In this document: in pieces, positions 21,001 to 41,380 of the stretch | Layout of the letters: each line of letters opens with the position of its first letter | How positions within the stretch are numbered: position 1 is the stretch's first letter | NCBI GenBank assembly: GCA_036785375.1 | Contig: JAWMAR010000128.1 | Span: 4,526,001 to 4,590,000, forward strand | Length of the DNA: 64,000 nucleotides | Source of the DNA: Leucoraja ocellata | Taxonomy: Eukaryota | Direction of reading: 5' to 3' | Position numbers: made by a program

Positions 21001-24000
21001 TTTAATGTTTTCATTTTTCCTGCCCTCTGGAAGCAGATACCCACTACCATCTGTGTGAAAAACGTTATCCTCCGCAGGATAATTAAACATACCCTATAGT
21101 TCTTCACTCCTTTACCCCGAGCGCACTTGACCTATCTATTCTAACGATGATTTTCTACTTCTCCATAAATTAACTGCACAGACTCCCTGTCCCCAAGAGT
21201 AAAATCCTGGCCTTTCAATATTGTGCCCCTCAAAACCTGGCAATCCCTGTAAAGTTGTTCCACAGTCATTCCATCGTTAACTGCAGCATTGCGATAGCAG
21301 GGTGACCAAAATCTGAGCAGGTCACCAAGTGCGGCACGACTCTATCTGCCCGTGACGCCACTATCCGGGAACTATGTGCTTCTAGTGTGAGATTCCTCTA
21401 CTCTGTAACATTCGTTATGGTCTTAGGTTTATTGTGAAGGTTGTTAGTGACTCTGGTTTGACGTCCAAAAAATGCAACATCTCAGAATTGTCTGAATTAA
21501 ACTACATTTTCCATTTCCCGGGCATCTTGCGCTGCTCATTATGTCCCTTCATAAATATCATCACGATGCCTCCTATTTTAGTGTCTTCTACAAATATAAT
21601 AATTTGCCTTGCATATTCTCATCGAATTGATTGATATGGAGAACAAACTGCAGTGGGGCCAGCAGCAAAACCCGGAACGACATTAGTTACAGGCTTCCTT
21701 CCGGTCCGAAAAATCATCTTGCCATCATCCTCCCCTCTTACCGTTTAGCCAATTGTGCGCCCATTAGCTAGCTCTCCTTGGTCCCCATGCAATCTAACGT
21801 ATCAGAGCATCATATCACGCAGAAAAGTATCAATGGCCTAGCTTAGTTCAAATGCCCGTTTCCCCCGTTATACCTCTCCCTTCCCCTTCCCCGCGTTCCC
21901 CTCCATAGAACATAGAAACATAGAAAATAGGTGCAGGAGGAGTCCATTCGGTCCTTCGAGCCAGCACCGCCATTCATTGCGACCATGGCTGATCGTCCCC
22001 AATCAATAACCCGTGCCTGCCTTCTCCCCATATCCATTGACTCCACTAGCCCCTAGATCTCTATCTAACTCTCTCTTAAATCCATCCAGTGATTTGGTCT
22101 CCACTGCCCTCTGTGGCAGGGAATTCCACACATTCACAAGTCTCTGGGTGAAAACGGTGTTTCTCACCTCAGTCTTAAATGGCCTCCCCTTTGTTCTTAG
22201 ACTGTGGCCCCTGGTTCTGAAATCACCCAACATTGGGAAGTTTCTACCTGTATCTAGCTTGTCCAGTCCTTTTATATATTTTTTATGTTTCTATTAGATT
22301 CCCCTTCATCCTTCTAAACGCCAGTGAATACAAGCCACTTATATACCCTCCTTCTGTCTTTACCTGTCAATCTTTCCCTCTACTTTTCTGACACCCTTTT
22401 TTCGTCTTTCCATTTTGACCTTTGTCCACACATCAGCTAATCAGGTTAGAGCAAGCACACCCGAACTCACCCGTATCGACCAATCACTTGTCGGGCTTTG
22501 TGCCGACGACATCTCTTTCCCAGATTTATCCCCTCCATTACAATAAGTGGGAGGACAGGGCCCCACCGCAAGCGGCGTCTATGCATGACCTTCAGAAATA
22601 CTTCTTGAACCGATATGTCATGCAGCACTTTGTGTTTTACTCAAGGTTCCAGCATCTACAGTTCGTGGTATATAATTACAGACTACCTCTATGGCTCTTC
22701 TACGTTCCCGGTTACTTTTCCATAACGCAACCAGTAACGTTAGGCACATCTCACACGCATAAACCCATGTAGACGACCNNNNNNNNNNNNNNNNNNNNNN
22801 NNNNNNNNNNNNNNNNNNNNNNNNNNNNNNNNNNNNNNNNNNNNNNNNNNNNNNNNNNNNNNNNNNNNNNNNNNNNNNNNNNNNNNNNNNNNNNNNNNNN
22901 NNNNNNNNNNNNNNNNNNNNNNNNNNNNNNNNNNNNNNNNNNNNNNNNNNNNNNNNNNNNNNNNNNNNNNNNNNNNNNGTCTACTCCGCCATTGATGGTT
23001 GATCTATCTCTCCCCTCCTAACCCATTCTCCTGCCCTCTCTCCATAATCTCTGATACACGTACAAATCAAAAAACGGTTGAAATTGAGCTTCTTGCCTAA
23101 TATCTGATTCGCCACCAATAAACCATTGTCTCAATGTCATTGCCAGACCTCGCAATACTTCTCAGAGATCCCACCGTCGAAGAAATTTGGATCAACAAAA
23201 CTGCGACCGTGGTCTGTGAAGTGATCGCCACAGCTCCGACTGAAGTTGCGATCTCTTGGACAGTGGATGGAAAGGAAAGAGTTGCTGGGGTTCAAACCGA
23301 TCCATCTACCAAGGCCGGGAACCAGTACCTGACGATCGGCCGCTTGACCAGCAACTCTCAGAATGGGACAGCGGAGTGGAGTACTCGTGCTCGGCGCAGG
23401 ACCATCAATCAGCTACTCCGGTATCACAGCGGACACGAAAGGCTAAAGGTGCGTGCAATAACAACAATGAAAATGCAAAACGGTGTACATACTGAACTAG
23501 CAAGAAAAGTAATGCAAGTCAGTTTACAGAAGTAAACATGCATGAAGATGAGTGTGGTGGGGGGGGGGGGGGTAAAAACTGACAAAGAGGTCAGGGCGAA
23601 AGTGGGAAGTTATCAATCGATTCGGCTATAATTTGTTTTAAGAAGGAACTGCAAATGCTGGGAAAATCGAAGGTACACAAATATGCTGGAGAAACTCAGC
23701 GGGTGAAGCAGCATCTATGGAGCGAAGGAAATAGGCAACGTTTCCCGGAAATTGGAGGAACAGCACCTCATATTCCGCTTGGGGAGTCTGCATCCTGGGG
23801 GCATGAACATTGAATTCTCCCAATTTTGTTAGCCCTTGCTGTCTCCTCCCCTTCCTATATCTCCCTCAGCCCTCGGGCTCCTCCTCCTCCTTTTTCCTTT
23901 CTTCTCCCCGCAACATCCGGTTTCATCTGCGCTCTCTCCCGCGCTGTGATATCCGTCCTACTGCGTGGCGCCATCTATATGCCAAGCGTCGCCTAACATG

Positions 24001-38700: not shown

Positions 38701-41380
38701 TTCTACTGCAGTTGTACAGGGTCTTGGTGAGACCACACCTGGAGTATTGCGTACAGTTTTGGTCTCCAAATTTGAGGAAGGACATTATTGCCATAGAGGG
38801 AGTGCAGAGACGGTTCACCAGACTGATTCCTGGGATGTCAGGGCTGTCTTATGAAGAAAGACTGGATAGACTTGGTTTATACTCTCTAGAATTTAGAAGA
38901 TTGAGAGGGGATCTTATAGAAACTTACAAAAATTCTTAAGGGGTTGGACAGGCTAGATGCAGGAAGATTGTTCCCGATGTTAGGGAAGTCCAGGACAAGG
39001 GGTCACAGCTAAAGGATAAAGGGGAAATCCTTTAAAACCGAGATGAGAAGAACTTTTTTCACACAGAGAGTGGTGAATCTCTGGAACTCTCTGCCACAGA
39101 GGGTAGTTGAGGCCAGTTCATTGGCTATATTTAAGAGGGAGTTAGATGTGGCCCTTGTGGCTAAGGGGATCAGGGGGTATGGAGAGAAGGCAGGTACGGG
39201 ATACTGAGTTGGATGATCAGCCATGATCATATTGAATGGCGGTGCAGGCTCGAAGGGCCGAATGGCCTACTCCTGCACCTAATTTCTATGTTTCTATGTC
39301 TATGTTTCTATGTAACTGGAGCGTTATATTGTTGCGACGGTTTTTGAGTGTATTCTGCTTATGGCAAATAAAAATATTAATAATGGTCATCTACCAATTC
39401 CAGAAATTCCTAAAATAGAAGAAGATCTCCATGACTCTGTAGCAGATGACGGAATGATAGAATACATAGACGAGGAGGGCAACTCTGATGGGGCAGTTAC
39501 CGCCTTCGTGATCCTCTTTATGATCAGTACCATATACGGCGCATTCACAACGACGATTAAGGTAACATCGACTTTCACAGAACGTAGTAGGTAGAATAGT
39601 ACAGCACAAGAACAGGCATTTCGACCTACAATGCCCTTTCCTCCTCGTGCTTGATATCCTTCCATTCCCTGCGTATTAACGTGCCTCGCCATTAGCCTCT
39701 TAAATGCGATGATTGTGCATACATCCATTTCTGTGTAAAAAAAAATTACCCCGCTGATCTTTCAAAGTTGTCCCTCCCGCCTTTAAGCTACGACCTCTAG
39801 ACTTTGACATTTCCACCCTGGGAAAATTGTTCTGATTGTCTACCCTATCGATGTCTCCTGTCATTTTACATACTTCTATCAAGTCTCCCCCACAGCCTCC
39901 GACGCTCCGCGGTAAACAATCCAGATTTTGTGAGCGAGAAGCATATGGGCAATAGGGTAGAATAGAACAAGGGGAAATGAGAGAAAATATGGGCACATGG
40001 ATCCAGGTAGAATGGGGGGGAAGGTGAAGGTGGAGACTGGAAGCTCTTAAGCTGGGACACAAAGGTAACAAGAGCTGGAATCTGACAAATCAGGAAGATG
40101 ATATTTTGAGAAAATAAATGAGTGAAATTCAAAGAAGGTGGATTTGCCCGGCATTGATTTTGCACTGGATAAACCCTCTACTCAAAACAAAAGTTGGGAA
40201 GTCAGAGCCAATATTATAGATGGACGACTGATACTGGTAAAATTAATTATGGTTCCAAAATTTGGGAGGGATGGGAAAGTTAGGGACAGCTCAGTCGGGG
40301 CTGCTTGAATTCTTCCATGTATTAATTTCGACTGCAATGTTAAAATGTAGACGTTGTGTATCTTTTTCTTGGAGCCACAAAGACGAAGGGGAGATTGATT
40401 AAGGTCTGTGACATCAAGTTTGGTGTAGGCAGAGCAAATACAGGGCGTTTCCACCACTCACAGTCGGGTCTGAGAGTTTAGTTTAGTTTAGTTTAGAGAT
40501 ACAGCGCGGAAACAGGCCCTTCGGCCCACCGGGTCCGCGCCGTCCAGCGATCCCCGCACATTAACACTATCCTACTCACACTAGGGACAACTCTTTAGAG
40601 TGTGGGAGGAAACCGAAGATCTCGGAGAAAACTCACATAGGTAACGAGGGGAACATAAAGACATCACCAGTAGTCGGCGCTGCATTCGCAGTAAGGCAGC
40701 AACTCTACCACTGCGCCACGTGTATTTTGTGCAGAAATTGTATGACCTAGAACTCTCTGTCCAAGGTGGAAACAGAGTTAATCAGGAACCTGACGATCAG
40801 TGTTCTGTCGTTTCAGGTGAATTAATTGACGCGGAACCCGAAGTCATCTCTTGTTTATACTTGAGTGGCGCCACAAGTCAGATGGTGACCACAGACACAT
40901 CGTGGTTCGCTCCCGCACCCTTATCTACCGGACAATTTCAACTCCGTTGCAGTAACATCAGAGAAACGAGGCCAACTTTGGTTCCCTTCTCCCATCGGTT
41001 TCATTCCTATTTTTGCTTCGTTAATCGCCGATGTTGGATAGATTTCCACAAATTCTAGCAAGAAATACATCGATTGTAACTTCTCTTTCTGCTGTCTTAC
41101 AATATGTCACGAGAGTCTGTATTACCCCGTTCTGATACTGAGATAAGTGACTGAAATTTTGCAAACCATTTTTCGCGCTAATACATAAGCTGTTGCAAAA
41201 TAATGTAAGCTCTATAAATGACTTTTGGTAACACATCTCAAGTGAAATTTCTATGCTCCAATGATGAAATTGTCTTTTATTGTGTTTACGTAAGTACTAA
41301 ATGCTTCGCTGGCTTATTAAGAGTGTGACCTTTTTTCGAATCAATTGGCCGTCAATGTAATTATAGTGGCGGTTATATGC

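What the first reader, a model, noticed from the sequence alone, without database searches (positions are those of the whole stretch)
22779..40825. IgNAR-like heavy-chain gene lacking visible V-D-J-C1, abutting the GPCR cluster across an unsized gap
Seen: four phase-1 C1-set exons, a secretory tail, a poly(A) signal, an internal donor and TM exons in correct order. Recalled motifs (LLRDPTVEEIW, GNQYLTI, TNFP.ALEQD, PEW.GSKS, MANDTLLDSGY) match shark IgNAR C2-C5. IgW shares homologous terminal domains, so the isotype is probable, not proven. C2 begins 168 bp after a 200-N gap, and no V, J, RSS or C1 is visible to the left. Either the 5' half is unassembled, or this is a C-only relic beside a receptor array. 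If batoid, such loci are less well characterised and are a potential source of single-domain antibodies.
[Added by the scan's program, not by the reader: the finding's places include an assembly gap (unread letters, written N; its length is only estimated) at 22779 to 22978. Whether the letters on both sides are continuous or in frame is not known: test that first.]
Basis: partly seen in the sequence, partly recalled or inferred. Interest (0 to 1): 0.65.

Follow-up and report, generated by a model that had tools for sequence, protein, structure and literature searches.

The report
Partial shark-type IgNAR constant-region gene
This is the back half (four constant domains, secretory tail and membrane anchor) of a shark/ray heavy-chain-only antibody gene that starts at the edge of an assembly gap and carries a one-base frameshift in its first visible exon, so it is an ordinary, incompletely assembled or decaying antibody locus rather than something new.

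Summary
On the + strand right of the 200-N gap lie four C1-set immunoglobulin exons. Three of them find as best single-domain match the solved nurse-shark "novel antigen receptor" domains 4Q9B, 4Q9C and 2MKL, in that order (61-63% identity). They are followed by an IgM-like secretory tail, AATAAA, an internal G|GTAAA donor, and a membrane exon about 12 kb downstream.

A one-base deletion near 23353-23360 splits the domain between two frames and gives a stop at codon 15 of the next exon.

No V domain, fifth C domain or RSS is found anywhere in the window. No reading frame crosses the gap.

IgNAR is the likelier isotype, but IgW could not be excluded because no IgW sequence was reachable. Incomplete IgNAR clusters and gapped IgNAR loci are already in print (PMC8692893, PMC11641339).

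Verdict: a new member of a known kind, of low interest. "Unassembled 5' half" and "relic" remain undecided.

The parts
22779..22978 (.). Assembly gap of 200 N. It lies in non-coding sequence upstream of the first visible Ig exon.
   Evidence: All three + frames that leave the gap stop within 45 nt of it, and the frame of exon A has a stop at 23119-23121. The two flanks share no overlap; the best match is 12 nt at E 0.49.
23147..23448 (+). Exon A, the C2-like C1-set domain. It is broken by a one-base deletion within 23353-23360 and is 302 nt long.
   Evidence: Pfam C1-set covers only profile positions 9-69. The frame-1 part matches 4Q9B residues 3-75 at E 6.5e-25. The frame-2 part matches 4Q9B residues 71-103 at E 3.3e-9. 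Acceptor ccag| and donor aaag|gtgcgt are read.
24447..24764 (+). Exon B, the C3-like C1-set domain. Intact, 318 nt, phase 1 at both ends.
   Evidence: Pfam C1-set E 9.1e-20. Best single-domain PDB match is 4Q9C at 142 bits, E 1.8e-40, 66 of 105 residues identical by hand count. PMC12227049 names 4Q9C as shark IgNAR C3. Splice sites are read.
25505..25825 (+). Exon C, the C4-like C1-set domain. Intact, 321 nt, phase 1 at both ends. An extra Cys codon lies at 25510-25512 in the C3-C4 linker.
   Evidence: Pfam C1-set E 1.3e-9. PDB 2MKL 'Novel antigen receptor' E 4.4e-39, 60 of 98 identical. The second hit, 4Q9B, scores only 76 bits with 40 of 97 identical. Splice sites and Cys are read. The linker Cys of nurse-shark IgNAR is described in PMC11641339.
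26979..27361 (+). Exon D, the C5-like C1-set domain plus secretory tail (NVS glycosylation motif, Cys second from the end) and TAA stop. An internal donor G|GTAAA follows 27299.
   Evidence: Pfam C1-set E 1.1e-20 over the full profile. The domain plus tail align with IgM and IgA tailpieces. The sequence is read.
27633..27638 (+). AATAAA, 272 nt after the stop of the secretory form.
   Evidence: The hexamer is common in this window (98 copies), so position is the only argument.
28741..38936 (.). Retroelement debris filling the roughly 12 kb intron between exon D and TM1: LINE reverse-transcriptase fragments in both orientations.
   Evidence: ORFs are listed. RVT_1 is found in 4 of 150 scanned ORFs. 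The repeat copies are seen.
39404..39561 (+). TM1 exon. An acidic spacer (EEDLHDSVADDGMIEYIDEEGN) is followed by a hydrophobic span of about 22 residues ending in K. The acceptor is phase 1 and fits the donors of exon D (internal), B and C.
   Evidence: Sequence is read and translated. No significant PDB relative, so the assignment rests on anatomy only.
40817..40825 (+). Putative TM2 (Val-Asn-stop) behind tttcag. Not verified.
   Evidence: Read. Two TM exons are reported for the nurse-shark IgNAR genes (PMC11641339). No nearby poly(A) hexamer.

Best explanation
The region holds the 3' part of one immunoglobulin heavy-chain mini-cluster of the IgW/IgNAR lineage from an elasmobranch, most probably IgNAR. 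It contains exons for C2, C3, C4 and C5 with a secretory tail, then membrane exon(s) about 12 kb downstream.

In an intact cluster, V-D-D-D-J and C1 lie upstream. Here the contig simply begins 168 nt before C2, so those parts are either in the unsized gap or elsewhere in the assembly.

The inferred mode of working is the usual one for Ig heavy chains:
- The secreted form uses the whole last exon. Its tail carries an N-glycan site and a Cys near the end for multimerisation, and the poly(A) site lies near 27640.
- The membrane form splices from the internal G|GTAAA donor (27299) to TM1 (39404). It could also splice from the end of C3, because all junctions are phase 1.
- The Cys at the start of the C4 exon would link the two chains.

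Shown here: the exons, their phases, the tail, the donor, and the similarity to solved NAR domains. Inferred: actual splicing, expression and TM2.

As assembled, C2 has a one-base deletion that would end translation 15 codons into C3. This is either a consensus error about 375 nt from a contig end or a recent inactivating mutation.
For: - Four C1-set domains are found, and no others in the window.
- Matches to nurse-shark NAR domains are colinear. Exon A matches 4Q9B (43 of the first 69 residues, plus 20 of 33 after the frame change). Exon B matches 4Q9C (66 of 105). Exon C matches 2MKL (60 of 98).
- Each of these matches scores far above IgM and UrIg2. IgM scores about 57 bits and UrIg2 52.8 bits for exon C. 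UrIg2 scores 60.5 bits per domain for exon B.
- Positional matches (about 61-63% identity) exceed the cross match of exon C to 4Q9B (41%). They also exceed the within-gene paralogue identities: A/C 37-45% and B/D 39%.
- The linker Cys described for nurse-shark IgNAR is present.
- An IgM-like tailpiece follows exon D.
- The internal donor and TM1 acceptor are both phase 1.
- A five-C-domain membrane form is reported for IgNAR. For IgW only 2- and 4-domain membrane forms are listed (PMC4279169, passages read).
- Gaps inside IgNAR loci were found at 3 of 3 nurse-shark loci (PMC11641339).
- The three intact exons and both halves of exon A are equally conserved, so any decay is recent or not real.
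Against: - No IgW sequence could be compared. IgNAR C2-C5 are homologous to the last four IgW domains (PMC4622739; PMC4279169).
- Identity of 61-63% to nurse-shark IgNAR is lower than the '>80%' similarity that PMC12227049 gives for Ig/TCR C domains between elasmobranch species. That fits either a distant species or a paralogue such as IgW.
- C5 could not be compared with any NAR C5.
- TM1 has no detectable relative, and TM2 is a guess.
- The frameshift is not in a homopolymer, which argues somewhat against a simple consensus error.
- No V, D, J or C1 is seen, so the defining single-domain V of IgNAR is not shown.
Confidence: 0.62

Rival explanations
1. The gene is IgW (the shark IgD orthologue). 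The four exons would then be IgW C3-C6, and the missing upstream part would be VH-D-J-C1-C2.
For: - The last four IgNAR domains are homologous to IgW domains.
- Both isotypes share the duplication of a two-exon unit, which explains the A/C and B/D pairing seen.
- Identity to nurse-shark IgNAR is only 61-63%.
- All three shark isotypes have the C-terminal tail Cys (PMC8692893).
Against: - Long exact runs are shared with nurse-shark NAR, such as LLRDPTVEEIW, GNQYLTI and LPTPVK.
- The C3-C4 linker Cys reported for IgNAR is present. Whether IgW has it was not checked.
- A usable internal donor sits in the last C exon. A five-domain IgNAR membrane form needs it, whereas the listed IgW membrane forms have 2 or 4 domains.
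- None of these points is decisive.
Confidence: 0.25
2. It is a true C-only relic: an incomplete, non-functional cluster that lost V-D-J-C1 and is decaying. The C2 frameshift would be the first visible lesion. This reading concerns completeness, not isotype, so it can hold together with either isotype.
For: - The frameshift gives a stop at codon 15 of exon B.
- 3 of 7 bamboo-shark IgNAR clusters are incomplete (PMC8692893).
- One of three nurse-shark loci is not expressed (PMC11641339).
- The intron to TM1 is crowded with LINE fragments.
- There is no Ig neighbour in the 23 kb to the right.
Against: - The contig ends 168 nt before C2, so absence of upstream exons cannot be read from the sequence.
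- Three C exons, all splice sites, the tail and TM1 are intact.
- Exon A is as conserved as the others.
- A single-base lesion about 375 nt from a contig end may be an assembly error.
Confidence: 0.3
3. The Ig contig is misplaced. The join to the GPCR contig across the N stretch is a scaffolding artefact, and the gene really sits in an Ig/TCR region elsewhere.
For: - No sequence continuity or overlap exists across the gap.
- The left flank belongs to a duplicated GPCR array: 20779-21604 matches 2927-3762 at 94.7%.
- PMC12227049 places the IgH clusters of four elasmobranchs near TCR alpha/delta.
Against: [quoted passage not shown]
- Nothing in the window speaks against the join either.
Confidence: 0.3

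Closest known systems
Nurse shark (Ginglymostoma cirratum) IgNAR constant region; solved domains PDB 4Q9B, 4Q9C, 2MKL ('Novel antigen receptor')
   Same: - One exon encodes each C domain (PMC11641339).
- The matches of exons A, B and C to the three solved domains are colinear.
- The motifs LLRDPTVEEIW, GNQYLTI, TNFP.ALEQD and PEW.GSKS are shared.
- Each domain has two Cys, plus an extra Cys in the C3-C4 linker.
- There is a secretory tail, and membrane exons follow.
   Different: - Identity is only about 61-63%.
- The C2 exon is frameshifted.
- V, D, J and C1 are not visible.
- C5 and the TM exons could not be compared.
- That 4Q9B is C2 and 2MKL is C4 rests on the order of codes in PMC11181324 and on recall. 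Only 4Q9C = C3 was read in a paper.
Incomplete IgNAR clusters of the white-spotted bamboo shark (3 of 7 clusters; PMC8692893) and the gapped or unexpressed nurse-shark loci (PMC11641339)
   Same: These are IgNAR constant-region exons without a complete V-D-J-C set in a genome assembly. They lie in spaced mini-clusters.
   Different: Here the incompleteness coincides with a contig end, so it may be an assembly artefact. Which exons the bamboo-shark incomplete clusters lack is shown in a figure I could not see.
IgW long form (IgD orthologue) C3-C6
   Same: The last four domains are homologous, the two-exon duplication is the same, and the tail Cys is shared.
   Different: IgW has six C domains, a conventional VH and light chains. 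Its reported membrane forms have 2 or 4 C domains (PMC4279169). No IgW sequence was available for comparison here.
IgM/IgA secretory tailpiece
   Same: The tail GKPTLVNVSLVLTDSFKSC aligns with mu and alpha tailpieces, including the NVS motif and the Cys near the end.
   Different: The C domains match IgM much less well than NAR: 57 against 136 bits for exon C.

Membership tests
Immunoglobulin heavy-chain constant region (C1-set exons, phase 1) | Tandem C1-set domains, one per exon, with the Cys...Trp...Cys pattern and phase-1 introns | tested here: met
   Pfam C1-set hits on 4 exons. Boundaries and phases are read. Exon A is broken by a 1-nt deletion.
IgNAR | C2, C3 and C4 closest to known IgNAR C2, C3 and C4, in that order | tested here: met
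   Best single-domain hits are 4Q9B, 4Q9C and 2MKL. The test covered solved structures only, and these include no IgW.
IgNAR | Domains group with IgNAR and not with IgW in a phylogeny | not testable with these tools
   The protein databases were closed, and no IgW is held in the PDB or in readable paper text.
IgNAR | Single-domain V-NAR with V, up to three D, and J flanked by RSS in the same cluster | tested here: not met
   No V-set domain in 150 ORFs of at least 80 aa. RSS-like matches are at chance level: 1 found against 0.79 and 0.75 expected. However, the contig begins 168 nt before C2, so the feature may lie in the gap.
IgNAR | Five C domains, with C1 lacking light-chain and BiP contacts | tested here: inconclusive
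   Only four C exons are present and there is no fifth anywhere in the window. The expected position of C1 is in or beyond the gap.
IgNAR | Extra inter-chain Cys in the C3-C4 linker (PMC11641339) | tested here: met
   TGC at 25510-25512, the third codon of exon C. Its specificity against IgW is not known.
IgNAR | Secretory tail with C-terminal Cys, and membrane forms with 5 or 3 C domains | tested here: met
   The tail, the internal phase-1 donor and the phase-1 TM1 acceptor are read. The tail Cys is shared by all three shark isotypes. Use of the sites is inferred.
IgW | Six C domains behind a conventional VH | tested here: inconclusive
   The upstream part is absent.
IgM | Four C domains closest to mu | tested here: not met
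   IgM chains score 57-59 bits against 136 bits for NAR with exon C.

The most novel reading that the evidence does not exclude
The locus is a genuine, displaced IgNAR constant-region remnant: C2-C5, secretory tail and TM exons without V-D-J-C1. It would sit beside a rhodopsin-type GPCR array, outside the Ig/TCR complex. Alternatively, it is a cluster whose frameshifted C2 exon forces it to make only exon-skipped short forms. All junctions are phase 1, so C1 to C3 or C1 to C4 splicing would stay in frame, and a short form lacking C2-C3 is known from the bamboo shark.
Probability: 0.12. Interest if true: 0.35.

Novelty: new member of a known kind. Interest (0 to 1): 0.22.

Why it matters
If it is IgNAR, the window marks one IgNAR cluster in this assembly. 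That is useful for annotating the species' single-domain antibody loci. The practical message is cautionary. The useful part, the V-NAR segments, is not here. The C2 exon is broken as assembled. The apparent neighbourhood with chemoreceptor-like GPCR genes rests on a scaffold join. It opens no long-standing question, because gapped and incomplete IgNAR clusters are already described in shark genomes.

Tried and rejected
- **ESM Atlas look-alikes of exon D.** Only generic 'C1-set domain' clusters came back, so this gave no help on isotype.
- **TM1 exon against the PDB.** One spurious hit to a designed repeat protein and no Ig membrane form. The membrane exon therefore stays an anatomical call.
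- **Text search for six peptide motifs in papers.** Nothing on sharks. GKPTLVNVSL occurs only in a gecko IgM preprint.
- **Papers that might give IgNAR/IgW identities.** PMC4050542, PMC39599, PMC3839419 and PMC21721 are not held. PMC10522858, PMC5278576, PMC3149040 and the preprint 10.1101/2022.06.22.497154 were read by passages and gave no usable numbers.
- **RSS scans.** One match each at 3 mismatches, against 0.79 and 0.75 expected. One of the matches lies inside exon C. Both were rejected as chance.
- **Search for a fifth C domain or a hidden V.**
  - tblastn with the exon peptides.
  - An HMM built from exons B-D, run against 1690 six-frame pieces.
  - Pfam on 150 of the 162 ORFs of at least 80 aa. 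The 12 left out were 10 already scanned and two antisense ORFs over exons A and B.
  - Nothing was found beyond the four exons.
- **Overlap of the two gap flanks.** None.
- **IgM and UrIg2 as identities.** Rejected on score.
- **The GPCR at 9223-10185 against the PDB.** No relative at E <= 1e-10.
- **Not done.**
Every exon was searched on its own.
  - Supplementary figures and tables of PMC8692893 and PMC12227049, which may show cluster maps and alignments, could not be seen.
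Full report
**1. The gap first**

The N run is 22779-22978, exactly 200 N. A second run of 214 N lies at 12536-12749.
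- Each of the three + frames that leave the gap meets a stop within 45 nt. The frame that carries the first Ig exon has a stop at 23119-23121, just before its acceptor.
- The gap therefore lies in intron or intergenic sequence, and the question of reading in frame across it does not arise.
- The 2 kb on either side share nothing. The best match is 12 nt at E 0.49.
- The left flank belongs to the GPCR region: 20779-21604 is 94.7% identical over 838 nt to 2927-3762.
- Continuity across the gap can be neither shown nor refuted from the sequence. The gap was not filled or looked up.

**2. What is there**

Stop-to-stop frames and Pfam give four C1-set domains on the + strand. Reading the DNA gives these exons:

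| Exon | Coordinates | Length |
|---|---|---|
| A | 23147-23448 | 302 nt |
| B | 24447-24764 | 318 nt |
| C | 25505-25825 | 321 nt |
| D | 26979-27361 | 321 nt up to the internal donor after 27299 |

- All acceptors are AG, all donors are GT, and all junctions are phase 1.
- Exon D runs on into the tail GKPTLVNVSLVLTDSFKSCI and a TAA stop. AATAAA follows at 27633-27638.
- TM1 lies at 39404-39561, behind ccag. It encodes an acidic spacer and then a hydrophobic span ending in Lys, and it closes with AAG|GTAACA.
The next + strand AATAAA after it is at 43094, and TM1 itself finds no relative among solved structures.
- Two TM exons are reported for the nurse-shark IgNAR genes (PMC11641339, whole-text parts 1-2 read).
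- The 12 kb between exon D and TM1 is filled with LINE reverse-transcriptase fragments.

**3.

Exon A is one base short of a multiple of three.
- Its first part, in the acceptor's frame, aligns with residues 3-75 of PDB 4Q9B (E 6.5e-25).
- Its last part, in the donor's frame, aligns with residues 71-103 of the same chain (E 3.3e-9).
- Pfam sees only profile positions 9-69 in the first frame.
- The break lies within 23353-23360. Eight bases stand there where the nurse-shark chain has three residues.
- Read in the acceptor's frame, exon A ends on a codon boundary. Exon B is then read from its first base and stops at its 15th codon.
- Both halves of exon A are as conserved as the intact exons: 43 of 69 and 20 of 33 identical, against 66 of 105 and 60 of 98. 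These are hand counts from the alignments printed.
- The lesion is therefore recent, or it is an assembly error.
- It sits about 375 nt from a contig end, where consensus quality is often poorer (inference). It is not in a homopolymer.

**4. What it is**

Each exon was searched on its own.
- Among 177,635 distinct PDB sequences, the best single-domain match of each exon is a nurse-shark 'Novel antigen receptor' chain:

| Exon | Best single-domain PDB match | Score |
|---|---|---|
| A | 4Q9B | E 6.5e-25 and E 3.3e-9 (two frames) |
| B | 4Q9C | 142 bits |
| C | 2MKL | 136 bits |

- PMC12227049 (passages and section 6 read) names 4Q9C as shark IgNAR C3.
- A figure legend of PMC11181324 lists 4q97, 4q9b, 4q9c and 2mkl as the IgNAR constant domains. 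That 4Q9B is C2 and 2MKL is C4 follows from this order and from recall.
- IgM and UrIg2 score far lower.
- Exon C matches 4Q9B at only 41% (40 of 97). Within the gene, A/C are 37-45% identical and B/D 39%. This is the pattern expected from the old duplication of a two-exon unit that IgW and IgNAR share.
- Exon D finds IgM and IgA Fc ends with their tailpieces. No IgNAR C5 has been solved.
- Exon C begins with Gly-Asp-Cys. PMC11641339 describes an extra Cys in the C3-C4 linker of nurse-shark IgNAR that links the chains.

**5. IgNAR or IgW**

Reviews state that the last four IgNAR domains are homologous to IgW domains (PMC4622739; PMC5192425; PMC4279169; passages read in each).
- I could reach no IgW sequence. 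The protein databases were closed, the PDB holds none that I could recognise, and the Atlas gave generic names.
- For IgNAR: the long exact runs shared with nurse-shark NAR, and the linker Cys. An in-phase donor also sits inside the last C exon. A five-domain membrane form, listed for IgNAR, would need that donor, whereas IgW membrane forms are listed with 2 or 4 domains.
- For caution: 61-63% identity is below the '>80%' that PMC12227049 quotes between elasmobranch species.
- I put IgNAR at roughly 0.7 and IgW at roughly 0.25.

**6. No upstream half in the window**

- tblastn with the exon peptides finds only the four exons at E below 0.01.
- An HMM of exons B-D against 1690 six-frame pieces finds the same four exons.
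- Pfam on 150 further ORFs of at least 80 aa finds RVT_1 (4), 7tm_1 (1), ALKBH8_N (1), GIY-YIG (1) and DUF817 (1), and no Ig family.
- RSS patterns occur at chance level.
- Because the contig starts 168 nt before C2, this absence says nothing about the real locus.

**7. Comparison with what is known**

- Bamboo shark: seven IgNAR clusters over 800 kb. Four are complete (V, three D, J, five C, Sec, Tm) and three incomplete (PMC8692893, passages read).
- Nurse shark: three loci, all with assembly gaps, and one not expressed. Short forms also exist. The bamboo-shark short form lacks C2-C3 (PMC11641339).
- The window therefore shows a familiar situation.

**8. Verdict**

This is a real gene fragment of a known kind, probably IgNAR C2-C5 with secretory tail and TM exon(s). 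It is cut off by a contig end and carries a C2 frameshift of uncertain reality. The GPCR neighbourhood is unproven. Interest is low.

Noticed in passing
window 9223-10185 (+); 17346-18152 (-); 3-467 (-): Three rhodopsin-type GPCR genes or remnants lie left of the gap. One is an open 320-aa frame (7tm_1 E 4.9e-20) with no solved relative at E <= 1e-10. One is split over three frames and is a probable pseudogene. One is cut by the window edge.
   Followed up: partly
window 20779-21604 and 2927-3762: A segmental duplication, 94.7% identical over 838 nt, lies inside the GPCR array. It ties the contig left of the Ig gap to the first contig of the window.
   Followed up: no
window 12536-12749: A second N run of 214 bases. 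It is not the round 200 of the gap in question, so the two gaps may have been made by different assembly steps.
   Followed up: no
window 21909-22336 and at least 25 other places (e.g. 31193-31619, 61517-61790): An element of about 430 nt is repeated at 72-92% identity throughout the window, apparently the 3' end of the LINE. The LINE's reverse-transcriptase fragments fill the C5-TM1 intron and the right third of the window. The single Pfam ALKBH8_N hit probably belongs to the same element.
   Followed up: partly
window 52636-53049 (-), probably: One ORF matched GIY-YIG (E 2.8e-5). The batch output does not say which ORF, but this one shows a YIGET motif. It is possibly a Penelope-like retroelement.
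   Followed up: no
whole window: AATAAA occurs 98 times against 63 expected from shuffles. A poly(A) hexamer at a given place is therefore weak evidence here.
   Followed up: no
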